Below are positions 10,412 through 43,040 of a DNA stretch of 64,000 bases, one piece after another; position 1 is the first letter of the stretch, and each line of letters begins with the position of its first letter. The notes below the pieces were generated by a model. It was not told where the DNA came from, ran no database searches, and saw only the letters and a list, made by a program, of their open reading frames with translations. The DNA is from a virus: IMG/VR virus record IMGVR_UViG_3300037840_000216, positions 1 to 64,000 of that record. The stretch is one strand, 5' to 3'. Both the position numbers and the translations under genes were made by a program.

Positions 10412-11347
10412 TCAAGTCGATTCGGAGCAGGAACTATAGCGCAGACGCTTTCCCTCTGCCTTCTCCAGGGCAAGCATCGTGCGAGCACCGTCAGTGTTGT
10501 AACGGAAGTCAAACTCGGAGAGATAACGGTGCAGGTGCTCAGCACTGACGTGGTGATAAACGCCGTTGATGCCACGCTTCAAGTTCGCGAAGTATCCCTC
10601 GGCTGAGTTCGTGTACACATCGCCTCGGGCATACTCTTTCTCACCGTGATCGACAATCTCGTGGCTTGCAAAGTCTTGATCTAGCCCCTGATATGAGCGA
10701 TGCTGGTCAGTCATCACGCGGGACTCACGTTCGACGTTCTCACGTACGGCTCCCTTGAGAGTCCTGCCAGTCACATCGGGGACAACCATTGAGCGAACGT
10801 TGCCCTTGCGTTCTACCAGCGAAATGACGGGGGTCTTGTCTATCCCTCCCGTGCCAGTGATTTTACGCTCACGGTCACCTTTGTGCATGTTCTTCGCCTT
10901 GCCACCCACGAATGTCTCATCGACCTCCACGATGCCGCTTAGACGGTCCTGAAAAGGACTCTGATCCATTGCGTGTCTGATGCGATGGAACATGAACCAA
11001 GCGGTCTTGTACGTGACTCCGATCGAGCGATGAAGCTGGTGAGCGCTCATGCCCTTCTTAGACGAGCAGAGTAGATAGAAGGCCAGCAGCCACTTGTTGA
11101 GCGGGATATGGCTCGATTCAAAGATCGTGCCGACCGTGACCGTGAACTGCTTACGGCAGGTCGCACACTTCCAGAGGCGACGTTTGGCTTTGCCTTTGAG
11201 CCTGTACGGCGTTCGATCATGCTCGCCGCAGTGGGGGCATACAGGACCATCCGGCCAGCGAATCCCCTCCAGAAGCTCGGCGGCTGCTTCTGGATCGGCG
11301 AAGTACGGCGCGAGATTAGCCAGGTTGAGAATCCGTTCTCCATCCAT
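10412..11347 (-). CDS. IS1595-family DDE transposase
   Basis: Zn ribbon CPHC..CATC, VEVDET, VMTD, TNSAEG, YLSEFDFRYN. Confidence 0.95.
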   Translation of the reverse strand: MDGERILNLANLAPYFADPEAAAELLEGIRWPDGPVCPHCGEHDRTPYRLKGKAKRRLWKCATCRKQFTVTVGTIFESSHIPLNKWLLAFYLLCSSKKGMSAHQLHRSIGVTYKTAWFMFHRIRHAMDQSPFQDRLSGIVEVDETFVGGKAKNMHKGDRERKITGTGGIDKTPVISLVERKGNVRSMVVPDVTGRTLKGAVRENVERESRVMTDQHRSYQGLDQDFASHEIVDHGEKEYARGDVYTNSAEGYFANLKRGINGVYHHVSAEHLHRYLSEFDFRYNTDGARTMLALEKAEGKRLRYSSCSEST

Positions 11348-18350: not shown

Positions 18351-18573
18351 GTAGAGAAGTGTAGCAGAGATTAGACTCCGCAAGCACCCGACGACCTCCT
18401 TGTAGACAAGATAACGTGAGATTCGACAAGGACCAGAGGAGGTCCAGCACAAACTAGCAGGCTGGTTTGCTATACTCCCGGCCATGCCAACACAAACACG
18501 ACCCCAAAAGCTCACGAAGACCAAGACGGCTACACCAATCAGGGGTAGCGCACTCCAGCATCAAGGGAGCTTT

Positions 18574-19275
18574 ATGACGACCAAGCGAACCTACAAAACG
18601 CTCATCCAGGAGGGCAAAAACCTGGTTGCGCAGCTATCGCAACACCAATGGGAGCTAGGTGATCTCGCTCTTGAGGTATGCCCTCCTGACGGAACCAATC
18701 CTCACAACCACGACCTTCAAGAGTTCGCCGAAGAGATTGGGATTGGGTACAACTCGTTGAGGAGCTATCGCACTACGGCGGATGCTTGGCTACTTGCTAC
18801 GCGCGTAGCAAGTACGGCCTTCAATACTCACAAGATTCTTGCCTCCAATCCAAAGCGTACCAAGCTCATCAAGCCAGGGATGACGGCACTAGAAGCCGAA
18901 AACATCAGCCGCAAGGAACGCGGTCTGCTTCCAAAAACGAGAGAAAATTTCTCCGACGAAGCTCCTGAGGTTCCCTATAGCGATGACGGAAACAGTGGAG
19001 GGAGTTATGGGTTCGGCAATGGTTCTGAACGCAAACCCAAGGACCGCGATACACTCATCAAAGAGCTAGAGGATGAGCAAAAAGAAGAGCGTCTTGCCAT
19101 CGAGGCATCGCCCGAAGGAAAGGCCGCTCGACAAATCCAAGGACTTCTTCGAAAGGCCATCTCAACCCATGAGTCAAATCATGATGAGGCGATCGCCTTC
19201 TTCGAAAAGGCAGCTACGCTTCTAGCGCAGCACGCAGCCCTAACAATTCAGGTAACCGTCGAGTTGCCTGAGTAG
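18574..19275 (+). CDS. Putative DNA-binding protein (LmbU-like HTH region)
   Basis: QWELGDL..EFAEEIGIGYNSLRSYR..AW..FNTHKIL. Confidence 0.55.
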   Translation: MTTKRTYKTLIQEGKNLVAQLSQHQWELGDLALEVCPPDGTNPHNHDLQEFAEEIGIGYNSLRSYRTTADAWLLATRVASTAFNTHKILASNPKRTKLIKPGMTALEAENISRKERGLLPKTRENFSDEAPEVPYSDDGNSGGSYGFGNGSERKPKDRDTLIKELEDEQKEERLAIEASPEGKAARQIQGLLRKAISTHESNHDEAIAFFEKAATLLAQHAALTIQVTVELPE

Positions 19276-19291
19276 AAAGTAGGAAATCATC

Positions 19292-19876
19292 ATGTCGAGC
19301 TACAACGAAACACTATATAACGACGCCTCGGTCCTCGTTGAGGAGGGTGTCAAAGACGTACGTAGTGGAGATCGAGAGAAGCCCTATCGCACACTTCATG
19401 AGATAGCTATAGGGCTAGGTTTGATCCAATTGAAGACAACTACAGCGGAGAGAAATCGCATCATAGACAGACTACGCCTGACAATCCGTCATGGCCGTGT
19501 CGATGAGAATAACCTAAGCCCCATCGTCGGTCATGGTTATGTCGATGAGTTTAGTTGCCGCTGCTGGACAGCCGAGACGTTTCATCCCGATGAGGTTCTC
19601 GAAGGATGGCACGGACAAGGCAATGCAATTTCCGAGGGGACCTTCAAAAGACAAGATGAAGGTGTGGCCCTCATTGGGGATAGCGGTGCAAAGGCAGCCG
19701 TCGCGCAGAATGATCTGAATCGAAAAAAGCGCGAACAACTCGCTAAAGCAGCCCTCACACCAGCGCAACTGCGTAAAGCTCGTGGTCAGCATGGTCTAAA
19801 CACTCCGAATCAGAAAGAACTAGGTAAGTTCAAAGCCAAGAGCACTACACCAAAACGAACCGCAAAGTCAAACTAA
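19292..19876 (+). CDS. Hypothetical protein
   Basis: 194 aa, RBS, co-oriented with the previous gene, followed by hairpins. Confidence 0.65.
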   Translation: MSSYNETLYNDASVLVEEGVKDVRSGDREKPYRTLHEIAIGLGLIQLKTTTAERNRIIDRLRLTIRHGRVDENNLSPIVGHGYVDEFSCRCWTAETFHPDEVLEGWHGQGNAISEGTFKRQDEGVALIGDSGAKAAVAQNDLNRKKREQLAKAALTPAQLRKARGQHGLNTPNQKELGKFKAKSTTPKRTAKSN

Positions 19877-35245: not shown

Positions 35246-36036
35246 TGAAGCTTGACAAAACTCAGATCACCAAAAACCTCAGCAAGAAGTATAAGTACGT
35301 TCCCTATCTGGAGAAGGCGATTGCCACCTTCGAAGATGATTGGCAGTTCGTCTACACCGAAAAGGAACACGACCTATACTGGCACCCTTCCGGTCACTGC
35401 ATGCCACCTGCGACGGAGCTATACGCCATTGCGCAGGAGCAAGCAGAGCGCGAGAACATCTCGGGGTCGGTGCGCAAGGCTTTCCAGGTCGGCCACTTCT
35501 GGCATCAGTGGCTCCAGTACATTACCCTGCACAAGCTGGAGTTCTGCACCCCAGAGGCTATCGAGCGCCGCGTCCTGCGTAGCTGGGGAGGCAAGGAAGT
35601 TGCCAAGGTAGAAATCACCGAGGCAGGTCTGTCGGCAGGTGACTGGAAGCCTGCTCCCTTCCACGCTGTGGCAGGATCGGGTGATGTGGCTCCGCTGGAA
35701 GCTCCCGGCTGGACTGGCATTGTGGACTACAAGACCATGAACGCCAATAGCTTTGCGCAACAGAGGATTCCCGAGCGCTTCAACGCTAAGTATGAGTGTC
35801 AGATCAACATCTACATGGACCTCTTTGATCAGGCGCAGGCGATCATCTTGCCGATCAATAAGGACACAGGTGATTTCAAGGAGTTTTTGTACGAGCGCAA
35901 CCAAGACTTGATCGACACTATCTACGAGAAGTGGGAATTCGTGAGCGCATGCATTTCGGCTGAATCTGCACCTACAATAGATGATGACGGATTCTTCGAT
36001 ATCGATTCTCTCCTCACAGGACCAGTCTCAACGTGA
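35242..36036 (+). CDS. RecB/Cas4-like PD-(D/E)XK exonuclease
   Basis: HPS..C, G..WH, GSGD, VDYKT, QINIYM. Confidence 0.75.
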   Translation: MMKLDKTQITKNLSKKYKYVPYLEKAIATFEDDWQFVYTEKEHDLYWHPSGHCMPPATELYAIAQEQAERENISGSVRKAFQVGHFWHQWLQYITLHKLEFCTPEAIERRVLRSWGGKEVAKVEITEAGLSAGDWKPAPFHAVAGSGDVAPLEAPGWTGIVDYKTMNANSFAQQRIPERFNAKYECQINIYMDLFDQAQAIILPINKDTGDFKEFLYERNQDLIDTIYEKWEFVSACISAESAPTIDDDGFFDIDSLLTGPVST

Positions 36037-36526
36037 GTGTCTGATCAAAGATTGTCCGCGCCCTGCCGTTGCTAAAGGATATTGTGGATCGCATTATGCA
36101 CGTCTACGGCAGGGACGTAATCTTGAGAATCCTCCGTTGCCCTCTTACGAGCCTCGAACATGTTCGGTCGAGGATTGTGAGTGGCCTTGTTACTGCCGGG
36201 ACCTATGTCAACGCCATCATCGCAAATGGCTGACCTACGGTGATCCGTGCGGCGGAAAGCAATATCGCCAACGTGGCACGGGTAGCTACTACAGTGGTGG
36301 ATATATTCGTATCGGCCAGCGCGGTCAACATCAACTCATCATGGAAGAAATACTAGGCCGCGCCCTGTATCCCGGTGAGACCGTTCATCACAAAAATGGC
36401 ATCAAGGATGATAACGATCCTGATAATCTAGAGCTACGGGCAAAAAATCATGGTCAAGGACAGACTATTCCTGATTTGCTAAAATGGGCACGTACAATCA
36501 TTGAACGTTACGAGGCGACAACGTGA
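35981..36526 (+). CDS. HNH homing endonuclease
   Basis: Two Cys/His repeats, HQLIME..GR..ETVHHKNGIKDDNDPDNLEL. Confidence 0.9.
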   Translation: MMTDSSISILSSQDQSQRECLIKDCPRPAVAKGYCGSHYARLRQGRNLENPPLPSYEPRTCSVEDCEWPCYCRDLCQRHHRKWLTYGDPCGGKQYRQRGTGSYYSGGYIRIGQRGQHQLIMEEILGRALYPGETVHHKNGIKDDNDPDNLELRAKNHGQGQTIPDLLKWARTIIERYEATT

Positions 36527-39638: not shown

Positions 39639-41582
39639 ATGAAATATCACCTCCTTACTGATGGGCTACTTGATAAAATCGAAATGCTTTCTCGGGATGA
39701 GCAAGAGCGATGGCTTTTCTTGTCCGAGAGCGAGGAGTTCAAAGGCCGTTGGGAAGTAAAAGGAATTTGGCCAACTTGGTTTTTTGACCTGGAGTCTATT
39801 GTGGGCCATTTCCGTACGGTTTCGCCCGCCCGTCTAAAGGATTTCATTGAGGCGTGTGACGATTATTATCAAATAGTTTTTGAGACCCCACCAGAGTCAA
39901 TTTTGACAATATATGAAGATCTACAGAACCCACCGCCTTTTGCGTTGAACTCAAATCTACCCAACACCATTCACGGGATGTTTCCGTGGCAAGTAGAAGG
40001 CTTCAATCGGCTGATCAAAGATGAATCACTCGGGGCCGGTCTAGCGATCTGGGCCACGGGGGCTGGAAAGACTGCGTTTCTTGCTTCAGCTATCAAGTGG
40101 CATGAAACCGAGGGTCATCCATATGATCTCGCCTTGGTGGTAGTGAAGAAGAATAACAAGATTGATATGCAGCGAAAGCTCAAAGCGCTTGCTAATCTCG
40201 ATTCGTTTGTAGTGATAGGAACACCCACTAAACGCAATGCTGTCTATGACGAAATGTCTGCTCGTCTAGAGGCAAAGGAAAAAGTCATCCTCGTTACCAA
40301 TTATGAGAACTTTCGTCAAGACGACGAGGCATTCAAGTGGCTGATGGAAGATCGGGACTGCTTGATCCTGTGGGATGAGATGCCTACGCGCCTGAGCAAC
40401 CGTACCACACAAGTTTACGAGGCTGTGCAAAAGTGCCTTTGGAAGACCTTCCAGCCGCGCACAGGGCTCCCGACGCCTAGACCTAGCTGGATGCGTCAAT
40501 GGATGCTAACAGCCACTCCGATCGAGAATAGTCCTGAAGGTCTTTTCAACCAAATTAGATTGCTAGATCCGACGCTTCTCGGTACTGTTGGGCAATTTGA
40601 GTCCAATTACGTAGTCAATCGCAATCCCATTTCACACAAGCCGGAACGATGGGGACGGCTTGATAAGCTAGAGGGAAAGATTGAGTTCATGACACATCGC
40701 GTAAGTTTGGCCGATCCAGAAGTGGCTAAGTTGTTCCCCGAGGTCATGGAGGACACACTGATCATCGATTGGGACCCACGGGATCGCGCCATCTACGACA
40801 TGCTTGCCACAAATGCTGTCAAGATCCTCGAAGAAGAATCAGAGTCAGAAGAATTCAACGTGTTGGCGCTCATTCAAGTAATGCAGATGATGTGTGATGC
40901 GCCTTCAATGATCGGAAAGTCGGCAGAGAACCACAAAGAGTTCAAGAAAGTCCTCGCAGAGCTAGGGGGAGAAGAAGATGACATGCCGCGTCTTATGAAG
41001 GGATCGGAGATTGCTGTACGCCTGGTCGAAACGCTGCGGAAAGCGCCAACCGATGAGCGACACACTAAGTTTGAGACACTCAAAGAAATCCTCACCGAGA
41101 AACATCCCGATGACAAGGTGCTTGTATACATGACTTGGGCCTCTTATGGTTTTGAGCCGATGGAAAAGAAGCTCAACGAGTGGGGCATCAGCTATGTCGC
41201 TTACGCGGGCACAGACAAACAACGCCAGGCGGCTAAGGATGCCTTTCGTGCCGACCCTGACATTCGGGTCTTCCTATCCAGCGATAAGGGTTCGGATAGC
41301 ATCGACCTCCCCGAGGCGGCTGTAGGCGTGCATTTCAATCAGCCCTGGACCTGGACTCGAAAGCAGCAGAGGGAGGGCAGGAACAACCGGGTCGATAGCT
41401 TGCTCCCGACTACGTTTTGGTACTCGTTGACGATGGCAGGCTCAGTGGAGGATCGCAAGCAGGAAATACTAGCGACTAAGCGTGGCTATCACGAGGCTCT
41501 CTTCGATGGCAAAGCCGCAGAGGACGCGATGGCCTCTAAGCTTTCACGCGAGGATTTGGTCTGGATTTTGACCGGCTCTTGA
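39639..41582 (+). CDS. SNF2-like (SF2) DNA helicase
   Basis: PWQ, TGAGKT, WDEM, LTATPIEN, SSDKGSDSIDL, PW..QREGR..R. Confidence 0.88.
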   Translation: MKYHLLTDGLLDKIEMLSRDEQERWLFLSESEEFKGRWEVKGIWPTWFFDLESIVGHFRTVSPARLKDFIEACDDYYQIVFETPPESILTIYEDLQNPPPFALNSNLPNTIHGMFPWQVEGFNRLIKDESLGAGLAIWATGAGKTAFLASAIKWHETEGHPYDLALVVVKKNNKIDMQRKLKALANLDSFVVIGTPTKRNAVYDEMSARLEAKEKVILVTNYENFRQDDEAFKWLMEDRDCLILWDEMPTRLSNRTTQVYEAVQKCLWKTFQPRTGLPTPRPSWMRQWMLTATPIENSPEGLFNQIRLLDPTLLGTVGQFESNYVVNRNPISHKPERWGRLDKLEGKIEFMTHRVSLADPEVAKLFPEVMEDTLIIDWDPRDRAIYDMLATNAVKILEEESESEEFNVLALIQVMQMMCDAPSMIGKSAENHKEFKKVLAELGGEEDDMPRLMKGSEIAVRLVETLRKAPTDERHTKFETLKEILTEKHPDDKVLVYMTWASYGFEPMEKKLNEWGISYVAYAGTDKQRQAAKDAFRADPDIRVFLSSDKGSDSIDLPEAAVGVHFNQPWTWTRKQQREGRNNRVDSLLPTTFWYSLTMAGSVEDRKQEILATKRGYHEALFDGKAAEDAMASKLSREDLVWILTGS

Positions 41583-41848
41583 TAGCCTGCTATACTCAAA
41601 CTTCGTAGACGAGAGCTAGGAGATGTGCGCTGACTCTGGAAGTCGGCAGCATCCAAAGCCAAACATACAGACAAGAGGTATCGTAATGAATATCGTTCTA
41701 GAGATAAAGGGGACCCCTGGGGTCTAAATCCGGGACGCCACCTTGGCGCTTCCCCTTCCGTGAAGCAACTGGCCACGAGCCGCGCTACCAGCCGCAAAGC
41801 AAGGGAGCGCGGCTCGTGGGGTTTTACGTCGTCCCCAGCCCCAGCTAC

Positions 41849-42075
41849 GGCATGCAGGGCTCGGTTTGGCAGGCAGGGCGGAGCAGGGTTCGGTTGGGTC
41901 TGGTGAGGCTTGGCGGGCTTGGCTGGGCTGAGTAGGGTTGGGCTCGGTAGGGTTTGGCAGGCTTGGTTGGCGTGGTAAGGTCTGGTTAGGCACGGCGCGG
42001 TTCGGCATAGTTAGGCAGGCGAGGCAAAGCGGTGTTCGGTGAGGCTCGGTATGGCGAGGCTTGGTTTAGTGAGGC
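41849..42075 (+). repeat. Array of ~41 GGY-NN pentamers punctuated by GGC(A/G)GGC junctions; candidate guide-RNA array
   Basis: Direct parse, e.g. GGC-GA GGC-AA AGC-GG TGT-TC GGT-GA GGC-TC GGT-AT GGC-GA GGC-TT GGT-TT AGT-GA; junctions at 41868, 41912, 41956, 42014. Confidence 0.9.
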
Positions 42076-43040
42076 GATTTGCCAAGAAGACCGAGAAGAG
42101 CTTCAATGAGGCGTCGATAGTGCCACGTTGGTCTTGCATCGCTAGAGACAGACATCTCGGTTGCGTGAGCAAAGCGGTGTGTGATTCGAGTTGCTTTATC
42201 GACCTCATAGAAGGGCGAAGGTTCCGGGTAAGGCATTGCGGGTCCAATCGTAGCCAATAGTCGTTGACGCGATTGCCCTTCACTAACGACTTCGACGGGC
42301 AGCGATGGGGCTCGGACCAAGGATCGATTAGGATCGGTAGCGTGGCGCACCATGTTGCGAGTGCGGATGGGGACATCGTCTGAGAGGCTCGTGTCTGTAG
42401 TCGAGCGGAAGAAGTGGGTGAGGATTGTCGCCCGGTCTGCGGACAGAGCTTTCTCTTCCTCTTCGCGTATGGGCTCCCCCGCACGAGCGATCCAGACGCG
42501 CGTCGGCGTGCCCTCCACGGTCAGTGCGAAGTCCCCCGACGCCTCAGCTTCTTTCCGTTTCGGAGGCGTTTCGGTGTTGACTCCACGGATGCGTGGGTAG
42601 GTGTAGCCGAAGTCCACGAAGACGAGGCTGAGCGTCTTCGAGGTTGACCACTCCCGCCCGAGGGAATCGAGCACAGTCAGGCTGATCTCTGTATCCGGGT
42701 CGGCGACCTCGTAGGTGTGCGTGACGGTCGGTCCGTGTCCGACATGTCCGTCCCCGAAGTCCCAACGGTACTCCAGGATGGTGACGCCCGGAGGCGGCTG
42801 AACGTGGGGCTGGACTTTGGATTCGACTTCGAATGGTTCCGCGTGGAACTCGACAGCGAGGAACACCGGGGTCGTGCCCCAGGCGTAGCGGTAGTCGCTG
42901 CCTTTGTCACTCGGCAGTGGAGGGTACGGATAGGTGTCGCCGTCGTACGTGGCGCTGCCTAGAGGGCCTGCCTGTTCGAAGTAGAAGTCTACGGTGACCG
43001 GAAGGGCGGGGCGGTTTGGATCGTTGACAATGGAGGTCAT
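42066..43040 (-). CDS. PKD-domain virion protein
   Basis: YRWDFGDG..GPTVTHTY..LTVLD. Confidence 0.75.
   Translation of the reverse strand: MTSIVNDPNRPALPVTVDFYFEQAGPLGSATYDGDTYPYPPLPSDKGSDYRYAWGTTPVFLAVEFHAEPFEVESKVQPHVQPPPGVTILEYRWDFGDGHVGHGPTVTHTYEVADPDTEISLTVLDSLGREWSTSKTLSLVFVDFGYTYPRIRGVNTETPPKRKEAEASGDFALTVEGTPTRVWIARAGEPIREEEEKALSADRATILTHFFRSTTDTSLSDDVPIRTRNMVRHATDPNRSLVRAPSLPVEVVSEGQSRQRLLATIGPAMPYPEPSPFYEVDKATRITHRFAHATEMSVSSDARPTWHYRRLIEALLGLLGKSPH

What the first reader, a model, noticed from the sequence alone, without database searches (positions are those of the whole stretch)
41849..42075. GGY-NN pentamer array: candidate non-contiguous guide-RNA locus
Seen: ~230 bp of constant GGY (sometimes AGY/TGY) triplets alternate with free NN dinucleotides. 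GGC(A/G)GGC junctions at 41868, 41912, 41956 and 42014 (spacing 44, 44, 58) cut it into blocks. NN strings: A = ag gg ag tc tg ct ga tt; B = tt tg tg ag tg tc ag tt; C = tt (t) gt aa ct ta ac gc tc at ta; D = ga aa gg tc ga tc at ga tt tt ga. An extended -10 (TGCTATACT, ~41588-41596) and a strong hairpin (41774-41819) precede it. A fixed scaffold with variable information positions is unlike a slippage microsatellite. Inference: each block is a guide RNA coated by a repeating protein that binds GGY and displays NN. From memory (not verifiable here), this matches recently reported phage RAMP/Cas7-like 'VIPR' systems with GGY/NN RNAs.
Basis: partly seen in the sequence, partly recalled or inferred. 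Interest (0 to 1): 0.95.

Follow-up and report, generated by a model that had tools for sequence, protein, structure and literature searches.

The report
Stand-alone VIPR guide-RNA array in phage
This five-base repeat is very probably a set of guide RNAs for the recently described CRISPR-like VIPR silencing system, carried by a large soil phage without a visible VIPR protein gene, and one guide spells the core of the helicase gene of rival sister phages.

Summary
At 41846-42074 (+ strand) lie 47 head-to-tail units. 41 have five bases; all 41 start with a pyrimidine and end in G, and 35 are perfect YNNGG. The two middle bases are nearly random. Nothing else in the 84,467-base record resembles it.

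VIPR is real and in print as three 2026 bioRxiv preprints. The array uses the same grammar, blocks of 8-11 units split by a four-base slip (GGCAGGC), as arrays next to Vipr genes in Gordonia phages Ecliptus and UmaThurman and Mycobacterium phage Saal. It has its own promoter.

Read with the published skip-one-base rule, the first eight units of block D match 16 of 16 letters of SNF2 helicase motif V in sister phages, with the wobble bases skipped. The phage's own copy, 737 bases upstream, matches 14 of 16 because one serine codon is AGC.

I found no Vipr gene, but the record is about half a genome. Blocks A-C have no credible target, and there is no RNA evidence.

Verdict: a new member of a known kind, a solo staggered vrRNA array. 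The scan has noted similar cases in at least 17 other genomes.

The parts
39639..41582 (+). SNF2-family DNA helicase gene (647 aa), last gene of the + strand replication module. Its homologues in sister phages carry the site that block D spells.
   Evidence: Pfam Helicase_C, SNF2-rel_dom and ResIII; phrog_62 DNA helicase, 8e-59; 71-76% identical homologues in three IMG/VR contigs.
41283..41314 (+). The phage's own copy of the block D site, in frame and coding DKGSDSIDLPE (helicase motif V region). It matches 14 of 16 (first 8 units) or 17 of 22 (11 units) guide letters. The sixth codon is Ser AGC, where 7 of the 11 distinct sister-phage versions of this site have TCN at both serines.
   Evidence: site starts at frame offset 0 of the gene.
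41568..41596 (+). Promoter-like site with an extended -10, overlapping the helicase stop codon. It would start a transcript near 41603 that runs into the array.
   Evidence: 10 of 12, TG present; 1 site found, 0.3 expected; same 9-mer at three other sites; the sequence before each shows these are places upstream of genes.
41603..41845 (+). Structured leader of about 240 bases. It holds a 13-codon mini-ORF (41686-41727) and a 14-bp perfect hairpin (41774-41819) followed by GGTTTT.
   Evidence: Fold -101.1 kcal/mol, z -2.5, 2 of 200 shuffles as stable. No Rfam family at E<=1 in 41000-42600. No other IMG/VR contig has the hairpin arms.
41846..41873 (+). Array head ('block 0'): 4 five-base units and two four-base slips. 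Too short to search with.
41874..41917 (+). Block A: 8 units plus the slip CGGG (44 bases). No credible target found.
41918..41961 (+). Block B: 8 units plus the slip CAGG (44 bases). No credible target found.
41962..42019 (+). Block C: one unit, slip TTGG, 9 units, slip CAGG (58 bases). No credible target found.
42020..42059 (+). Block D, units 1-8: guide whose 16 NN letters match helicase motif V of sister phages perfectly under the skip-one rule.
42060..42086 (+). Block D, units 9-11 plus 12 further bases: possible 3' terminal hairpin. The CTTGG unit pairs with CCAAG at 42082-42086. Units 9-10 do not match the target in any of the 11 distinct sister-phage versions of the site, apart from the two letters of unit 9 in L037.
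   Evidence: z -2.07, 8 of 200 shuffles as stable: weak. Similar end hairpins in Ecliptus and Saal arrays, not in UmaThurman.

Best explanation
The tract is a staggered array of VIPR guide RNAs (vrRNAs) of the type that accompanies Vipr genes in phages of actinobacteria. It sits here as a roughly 480-base cassette with its own promoter, between the helicase gene and the convergent tail-fibre genes of a large soil phage.

Inferred mechanism, taken from the published SUSP1 and P. fulva work. The + strand is transcribed from 41568-41596. Vipr protomers bind one GGY each, and the four-base slips (GGCAGGC) break the five-base register and so delimit separate guides. Each filament displays its NN pairs and binds double-stranded DNA that matches NN-x-NN-x, silencing it.

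Shown here: block D spells codon positions 1-2 of the conserved motif V of the SNF2 helicase, as 7 of the 11 distinct sister-phage versions of the site carry it. The phage's own allele, 737 bases away, differs in one whole NN unit (Ser AGC instead of TCN). So block D is most likely a weapon against co-infecting relatives, kept next to a resistant allele.

The Vipr protein is not encoded in the 84 kb held. It must come from the unsequenced half of the genome or in trans, for example from a resident prophage or a rival, as described for solo vrRNAs.
For: (1) Form. 41 of 41 five-base units have Y at position 1 and G at position 5, and the NN positions are near maximum entropy. The array is unique in the record and beyond shuffles.

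(2) Same grammar as Vipr-linked arrays. A blastn search with 41583-42066 (leader and array), whose matching part (41848-42007) lies inside the array, hits an unannotated gap in Gordonia phage Ecliptus, directly after a 209-aa gene. That protein matches SUSP1 Vipr (phmmer 4e-10; hhalign 95% against the actinophage-only profile). It keeps the H, R, D/E-W-R residues that the cryo-EM paper names as GGY contacts. Its model (pLDDT 80) matches Csm3/Cas7 chains, including 6IFN_E, with 89 matches at E<=0.001. The Ecliptus, UmaThurman and Saal arrays are also contiguous and are split by CAGG (Ecliptus once by CTGG) into blocks of 8-11 units for the most part (one of 23 and one of 7 in UmaThurman); ours has blocks of 8, 8, 9 and 11.

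(3) Own promoter.

(4) Target. D8 scores 16/16 in G002, L002, L007, L008 and L009, and 0 of 200 shuffled guides reach that in any of them. D11 scores 19/22 (86%) there, above the published 80% line. In IMG/VR, 5 of 6 exact hits to the 18-letter pattern are this helicase. In metagenomes, 7 of 11 helicase homologues are 16/16 and L037 is 20/22. The skipped bases fall on codon position 3 and vary between contigs, while the NN letters do not. Skips of 0, 2 and 3 bases give no such match.

(5) The cassette is an insertion. G001 has at most about 95 bases between the same two genes. 0 of 5 related records searched whole (2 of them complete) and 0 of 11 metagenome loci have an array.
Against: No Vipr or vap homologue was found in the record by phmmer, phrog_4652 or the A1 profile. 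By hhalign, the best of 85 ORFs of 90 aa or more scores 8%. The two complete relatives have none either.

There is no RNA evidence. Blocks A, B and C have no target above shuffled guides in the phage's own genome, in G001 and G002, in the loci L002, L007, L008 and L009, or in four Vipr loci. Their IMG/VR hits look like chance.

If block D is an 8-unit guide, the phage's own gene matches 87.5%, above the published 80% line, so self-discrimination rests on one mismatched unit whose effect is untested.

The AGC codon is shared by the array-less relatives L038 and L061. It was therefore not necessarily selected in this phage. A hairpin plus GGTTTT lies between the promoter and the array and could stop transcription.
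Confidence: 0.8

Rival explanations
1. It is part of a complete VIPR system. The phage has its own vipr (and vap) gene in the roughly 84 kb that the record lacks, and this is an outlying array of that system rather than a truly solo one.
For: CheckV completeness is 53%. The record aligns collinearly with only 23.5-102.4 kb of the 167.9-kb relative G001. Other notes of this scan describe lone guides 20-30 kb from a Vipr gene in other phages (unchecked).
Against: Both complete relatives lack Vipr and arrays, so a vipr gene would be a second insertion. In the three Vipr+ actinophages examined, the array directly adjoins vipr.
Confidence: 0.35
2. It is a decaying remnant, left after loss of vipr-vap (as in the SUSP1-like deletion lineage) or copied in by recombination, and is no longer used.
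For: No Vipr gene found. 6 of 41 five-base units depart from GG at position 4. Three blocks have no target. There is an extra slip (TTGG) inside block C.
Against: Position 1 (Y) and position 5 (G) are intact in 41 of 41 units. There is a consensus-like promoter. Block D's guide is still letter-perfect against living relatives. The Vipr-linked arrays show similar degeneracy, with 34 of 38, 54 of 60 and 41 of 43 perfect units.
Confidence: 0.1
3. Block D regulates the phage's own helicase (a timed shut-off of early genes) rather than attacking relatives.
For: The best match of D in the phage's own genome is its own helicase, at 14/16 or 17/22, and it lies only 737 bases away.
Against: Relatives match better than self (16/16 against 14/16). 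The own-genome score is reached by 6 of 200 (D8) and 9 of 200 (D11) shuffled guides. The published systems show self-matches lower than non-self matches.
Confidence: 0.07
4. It is not a guide at all: a G-rich structural repeat (two-tetrad G-quadruplex tract, recombination or terminator element between convergent operons), or a proline-rich ORF on the - strand.
For: GG every five bases could form G-quadruplexes. A 94-aa ORF (41724-42008, -) overlaps it. The tract lies where two convergent gene blocks meet.
Against: None of these explains the pyrimidine at position 1, the shared GGCAGGC punctuation with Vipr-linked arrays, or the 16/16 codon-phased match. A period of 5 is incompatible with coding, and the ORF's translation is low-complexity.
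Confidence: 0.03

Closest known systems
Solo (orphan) vrRNAs of VIPR-null SUSP1-family phages and F5 satellites (bioRxiv 10.64898/2026.10.15.759431; abstract, sections 8 and 17 and passages read)
   Same: A GGY/NN array on a phage with no Vipr hit on the contig, which is the paper's own definition of solo. The target is wobble-aligned in the core of an essential gene. The self-match is lower than the non-self match.
   Different: The published cases are single guides with a pseudoknot tail in Enterobacteriaceae phages. They lie at the site of a vipr-vap1 deletion and aim at vipr, other vrRNAs or satellites. Here a four-to-five-block tail-less staggered array sits in a large soil phage (nearest cultured relatives infect actinobacteria, at most 26% identity). 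It is aimed at the helicase of sister phages and sits beside the phage's own variant allele.
Staggered vrRNA arrays of VIPR systems (bioRxiv 10.64898/2026.04.26.720920, legend of fig. S18 read; figure not held)
   Same: Contiguous guides without spacers or tails, each starting where the last ends, with a one-base overlap. The four-base slip here is a shift of one base in the five-base register.
   Different: I could not see the figure or learn which VIPR type it shows. Cutting at GGCAGGC is my inference.
Vipr-linked arrays of Gordonia phages Ecliptus and UmaThurman and Mycobacterium phage Saal (GenBank OP820472, NC_031249, NC_023580)
   Same: The same YNNGG units, the same CAGG slip, and mostly blocks of 8-11 units, on the coding strand of the neighbouring early genes. 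The stretch 41848-42007, inside the array, aligns with the Ecliptus array at 68.5%.
   Different: Those arrays touch a vipr gene and a conserved downstream gene. Ours has neither. Instead it has a 240-base structured leader with its own promoter.
Type II VIPR of Escherichia phage SUSP1 (KT454805)
   Same: GGY/NN units and the skip-one rule. The locus as I read it has one array upstream and three downstream of a 195-aa and a 146-aa gene, as the paper describes.
   Different: SUSP1 guides are separate units of about 100 bases, each with a conserved 3' tail, and they lie next to vipr-vap1.

Membership tests
VIPR vrRNA | Tandem YNNGG (GGY/NN) pentamers, at least 4 units, with GGY fixed and NN variable | tested here: met
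   41 five-base units: Y 41/41, G at position 5 41/41, G at position 4 35/41. NN entropy 1.72 and 1.99 bits. Beyond shuffles.
VIPR vrRNA | Natural target under the 1-nt skip rule with at least 80% NN match, skip bases on codon position 3 | tested here: met
   Block D only: 19/22 (86%), and 16/16 over units 1-8, in helicase genes of sister phages, in frame. 0 of 200 shuffled guides reach it. Blocks A-C: not met.
VIPR vrRNA | No self-target at or above 80% NN match on the source contig | tested here: inconclusive
   The phage's own helicase scores 17/22 = 77% if block D has 11 units, and 14/16 = 87.5% if it has 8.
VIPR vrRNA | Transcribed, processed to unit-length RNAs and bound by Vipr | not testable with these tools
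   Promoter-like site only. No RNA run listed.
Complete VIPR system | vipr gene (RAMP homologue) beside the array | tested here: not met
   No hit with SUSP1 or Ecliptus Vipr, phrog_4652 or profile A1. hhalign gives at most 8% over 85 ORFs, against 95% for the control. Only 53% of the genome is held.
Complete VIPR system | vap accessory gene next to vipr | tested here: not met
   SUSP1 vap1 and the Ecliptus genes flanking the array give no hit at E<0.09 in the six-frame translation. The adjacent SNF2 helicase is conserved in array-less relatives, so it is not a vap.
Solo (orphan) vrRNA locus | [quoted passage not shown] | tested here: met
   No Vipr in the record. The array lies 41.8 kb from one end of the record and 22.4 kb from the other.
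Staggered array of actinophage-type VIPR | Contiguous blocks separated by a one-base register shift (four-base unit CAGG, read as GGCAGGC) | tested here: met
   Slips at 41870, 41958 and 42016 (CAGG) and 41914 (CGGG). The same CAGG slips occur in the Ecliptus (3, plus one CTGG), UmaThurman (6) and Saal (5) arrays.
Type II (SUSP1-like) vrRNA | Conserved 3' tail with pseudoknot after each repeat tract | tested here: not met
   There are no tails between blocks. Only a weak hairpin follows the last block.

The most novel reading that the evidence does not exclude
Guide and antidote travel as one unit. A phage lineage gained a promoter-driven solo guide array right next to the gene it targets in its relatives, while its own allele of that gene carries a serine codon-family switch (TCN to AGY). 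That is the only synonymous way to change the two letters a VIPR guide reads. Tight linkage (737 bases) would make this a poison-antidote pair. It would spread through recombination among co-infecting sister phages and would run on a Vipr protein supplied by someone else. Serine and leucine codon-family switches would then be the general escape route from a code said to prevent mutational escape.
Probability: 0.3. Interest if true: 0.7.

Novelty: new member of a known kind. Interest (0 to 1): 0.45.

Why it matters
It extends solo VIPR guides from coliphages to a large, tRNA-rich soil phage, and extends the staggered array type to a locus without Vipr.

It also gives a concrete, testable guide-target pair. 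An eight-unit guide faces a helicase catalytic motif for which nature supplies both matched (TCN/TCN) and one-unit-mismatched (AGY) alleles. That pair can measure how much a single mismatched NN unit protects, which decides whether such guides tell self from kin.

The placement of the guide beside the resistant allele recurs in unchecked notes of this scan on other genomes. It is not mentioned in the main text of the third VIPR preprint. My word search of the first for other terms did not bear on it, and I did not search the second for it. If general, it is a new rule of phage-phage conflict.

Tried and rejected
Targets for blocks A, B and C. There is nothing above shuffled guides in the phage's own genome, in G001 and G002, in the loci L002, L007, L008 and L009, or in four Vipr loci.
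- Block C gave one exact IMG/VR hit, in a 45% GC contig and not wobble-aligned, which equals the chance expectation.
- Block A gave 6 hits in unrelated contigs. The one apparent wobble-aligned pair (L075, L077) lies in a frame whose translation looks non-coding.
60 of these 80 sit in one register that puts G at codon position 1 of low-GC contigs. That is a codon-bias artefact.

The other note's claim of DnaB matches for blocks A and B was rejected: best 10-11 of 16, reached by 489 and 238 of 500 shuffled guides.

A perfect 22/22 target for block D has no match in IMG/VR. The best is 20/22, in L037. An 18/22 match at G001:40445 is antisense to a gene and was judged chance.

Vipr candidates. The two-gene unit 18484-19876 is absent from G001 and G002 and has the same -10 motif. 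It has no Pfam or PHROG family apart from a weak DUF2786 hit. The Atlas gives DUF6192/ParB-HTH-like neighbours for the 263-aa protein and a poor model (pLDDT 0.43) for the 194-aa one. I did not fold them myself.

No Rfam family, hammerhead included, was found in 41000-42600.

Leader hairpin: no other IMG/VR contig carries it.

Sequencing runs: two soil DNA runs hold the stretch (one may be the source) and no RNA holder is listed. In the second run no contig covers 41828-42062, so nothing can be said about NN variation.

Helicase tree. The AGC-at-unit-6 rows do not form a clean clade; L038 pairs with the TCA row L037 at 89/87. Most forks are open, so the number of serine switches is unresolved. 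L008 (140 aa) was left out as too short.

Terminal hairpins are not more stable than shuffles in 3 of 4 arrays.

Supplementary files of the preprints (type tables, fig. S17-S18 data) were closed. They may already list actinophage VIPR types or solo arrays.

Full report
WHAT IS THERE

The window is the first 64 kb of an 84,467-base IMG/VR phage record that CheckV rates 53% complete. Genes on the + strand up to 41582 are a replication and recombination module: DnaB-like, polymerase-sized, RecA/UvsX, nucleases, sigma factor, SNF2 helicase. From 42066 onward the - strand carries tail and virion genes. The finding lies in the 483-base gap where the two blocks converge.

The gap contains, in order:
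- a sigma-70-like promoter with an extended -10 (41568-41596, 10 of 12);
- a structured leader with a 14-bp hairpin;
- 229 bases of five-base repeats at 41846-42074.

My dynamic-programming parse gives 47 units: 41 of five bases and six of four bases. Position 1 is always a pyrimidine and position 5 is always G. Position 4 is G in 35 of 41. Positions 2-3 are close to random, at 1.72 and 1.99 bits. In-phase counts reach 7 of 8 only here, while 50 shuffles reach 4 or 5. No other place in the record exceeds 4.

THE LITERATURE IS REAL

Two full-text searches find three bioRxiv preprints of 2026.
- 10.64898/2026.04.26.720920: Results, Methods sections 18, 20, 26 and 27, and passages read.
- 10.64898/2026.04.26.720927: outline and passages read.
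- 10.64898/2026.10.15.759431: outline, sections 8 and 17, and passages read.

They describe Vipr, a minimal RAMP protein of phages. Vipr polymerises on vrRNAs made of YNNGG units, hides each GGY and pairs the NN letters with DNA while skipping every third base. They report natural targets that are wobble-aligned in essential genes of competing elements. They also describe seven types, including 'staggered arrays' in which one guide ends where the next begins with a one-base overlap, and solo vrRNAs on phages and satellites that lack vipr.

COMPARISON WITH VIPR-LINKED ARRAYS

I read the SUSP1 locus from GenBank. It has a 195-aa and a 146-aa gene with one array upstream and three downstream, as the paper describes. 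The 195-aa protein has H17, E71, M72, R138, C173, D177, W178 and R179, which the cryo-EM paper names as contacts. It has V, not T, at position 175.

A blastn search with 41583-42066 (the leader and the array) against 50,697 phage records gave one hit. The matching part, 41848-42007, lies inside the array, and the hit is an unannotated gap in Gordonia phage Ecliptus. The gene just before that gap (209 aa) is a Vipr homologue:
- phmmer against SUSP1 Vipr gives 4e-10;
- hhalign of SUSP1 Vipr against the actinophage-only profile gives 95%;
- the contact residues are conserved;
- the AlphaFold model (pLDDT 80, pTM 0.77) matches Csm3/Cas7 chains, with 89 matches at E<=0.001.

The family is large: 4,634 proteins at E<=0.001. 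Among cultured phages it occurs in 27 Mycobacterium, 5 Gordonia and 1 Pseudomonas records.

The arrays next to it in Ecliptus, UmaThurman and Saal are contiguous YNNGG tracts cut by the same four-base unit CAGG (Ecliptus once by CTGG). Most blocks have 8-11 units; UmaThurman also has one of 23 and one of 7. Ours has CAGG three times and CGGG once, with blocks of 8, 8, 9 and 11. This shared punctuation is the strongest evidence of kind. A four-base unit shifts the five-base register by one, which fits the 'one-base overlap' in the fig. S18 legend. I could not see the figure.

THE TARGET

I scanned every start on both strands with the NN pairs joined by 0-3 wildcards.

Only block D with one wildcard gave a coherent result. 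Its best match is the same homologous site of the SNF2 helicase gene in four sequences:
- the phage's own genome: 17/22 at 41283;
- L002: 19/22;
- L003 and L004: 17/22.

The site is in frame and the skipped base is codon position 3. It codes DKGSDSIDLPE within FLSSDKGSDSIDLPEAAVG, which I take from general knowledge of SF2 helicases to be the motif V region.

Units 1-8 match 16/16 in G002, L002, L007, L008 and L009. In each of these, 0 of 200 shuffled guides reach that score. An exact IMG/VR scan with the 18 matching letters returned 6 stretches, of which 5 are this helicase.

Degenerate scans for the motif returned 7 of 7 helicase homologues in IMG/VR. In metagenomes they returned 37 stretches. 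Eleven of these carry the helicase motif and 26 are unrelated chance matches.

Over all 11 distinct non-own site sequences, 7 are 16/16. Two have Ser AGY at unit 4 (the G001 type, and L054). Two have Ser AGC at unit 6 (L038, L061), as the phage itself does. Skipped bases differ at almost every position between contigs, while the read letters differ only through the serine switches and one Leu CT/TT change.

Units 9-10 never match, apart from the two letters of unit 9 in L037. Units 9-11 can instead pair with downstream bases into a small end hairpin (weak). So the working guide is probably eight units, like blocks A and B.

WHAT THIS DOES NOT SHOW

No Vipr or vap homologue is in the 84 kb. The record corresponds to 23.5-102.4 kb of the complete 167.9-kb relative G001. 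About 23 kb on one side and 65 kb on the other are therefore missing. Both complete relatives lack Vipr and arrays.

The cassette is an insertion. G001 has at most about 95 bases between the same two genes. None of 11 metagenome loci has an array.

[quoted passage not shown] Whether the phage truly lacks vipr is open.

The AGC allele is shared with the array-less relatives L038 and L061, the closest at DNA level (74-75%). The tree is too weak to count switches. So the recoding may have preceded the guide rather than followed it.

If the guide has eight units, the phage's own gene still matches 87.5%. The preprints give no mismatch tolerance in the passages I read (one search found no 'mismatch' in the cryo-EM paper).

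Blocks A-C have no credible targets. No RNA data exist.

MECHANISM AND RIVALS

- Best reading (0.8): a VIPR guide array of the actinophage staggered type, with block D aimed at the helicase of sister phages. Vipr is supplied from the missing half of the genome or in trans. Loading, cutting at the slips and silencing are inferred from the SUSP1 and P. fulva work, not shown here.
- Within that reading, 'own vipr elsewhere' (about 0.35) and 'truly solo' cannot be separated.
- Remnant (0.1), self-regulation (0.07) and non-guide repeat (0.03) are less likely, for the reasons given under rival explanations.

The closeness of guide and variant allele (737 bases in a genome of about 168 kb) would arise by chance roughly once in a hundred if placement were random. 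That figure is my estimate, not a test. It suggests selection for linkage, and it is the boldest reading that the data allow.

NOVELTY

The kind is in print, including staggered arrays, solo vrRNAs, wobble-aligned targeting of catalytic cores, and self-matches lower than non-self matches. Three things are new here:
- the host range (a large soil phage whose nearest cultured relatives, at 26% identity or less, infect actinobacteria);
- a multi-block staggered array standing alone behind its own promoter;
- the helicase target with natural serine-switch alleles.

Word searches of two of the preprints' main texts found nothing on these points. The third preprint has no relevant passage for 'adjacent', 'neighbouring', 'linkage', 'helicase' or 'Mycobacteri'. 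The first has none for 'Mycobacteri', 'Gordonia', 'Actinomycet', 'Actinobacteri' or 'orphan'. The second was not searched for these words. The supplements were closed and may hold such cases.

This scan already holds 18 similar notes from at least 17 other genomes, several describing a guide beside a recoded target (unchecked by me). So this is one more instance of a recurring pattern.

Noticed in passing
L022:3146-3469 (Gordonia phage UmaThurman NC_031249, gene 40): The CDS annotated as hypothetical protein gp40 coincides with the 324-base YNNGG array directly after the Vipr homologue gp39. It is very probably a vrRNA array mis-called as a gene.
   Followed up: partly
window 18484-19876: A two-gene unit (263 aa, DUF6192/ParB-HTH-like by the Atlas; 194 aa, no relatives) is absent from both complete sister phages. 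It sits behind the same 9-base extended -10 motif as the array. Function unknown; no sign of a RAMP fold.
   Followed up: partly
window 10412-11347 (-): An IS1595/ISXO2-type transposase gene (Pfam 5.8e-45) lies inside the phage's tRNA island and is absent from G001 and G002. It looks like an insertion sequence resident in a phage genome.
   Followed up: no
window 35981-36526 (+): An HNH endonuclease gene is wedged into the replication module. Its only homologue in G001 lies at the far end of that genome (166.9-167.4 kb), as expected of a mobile homing endonuclease.
   Followed up: no
window 41686-41727 (+): A 13-codon mini-ORF with a Shine-Dalgarno-like AAGAGGT lies in the leader between the promoter and the array. 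It is followed by nested stems and could be a leader peptide or nothing.
   Followed up: no
window 42060-42086; L020:6171-6198; L023:2334-2351: Three of the four arrays compared end in a hairpin whose 5' arm is the last CTTGG-type unit and whose 3' arm is the downstream CCAAG. Saal's has a GCAA loop. UmaThurman shows none. The hairpins are not more stable than shuffles, so this is only a lead for a shared 3' end signal.
   Followed up: partly
window 41712-41724 (-): A weak terminator-like site for the - strand lies beyond the array. Late tail-fibre transcripts may therefore read through the array in antisense.
   Followed up: no
L079-L158 (IMG/VR hits of the block B pattern): A 16-letter gapped guide rich in T and G found more than 120 exact matches. 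60 of the 80 examined sit in the register that puts G at codon position 1. Codon periodicity alone can therefore fake wobble-phased 'targets' for some guides, a caution for target calling.
   Followed up: yes
window 41283-41314 and homologous sites in L003, L038, L048, L054, L061: Both serines of the invariant DKGSDSID motif switch between the TCN and AGY codon families in different sister phages. This is the only synonymous change visible to a skip-one guide. The tree is too weak to count events.
   Followed up: partly
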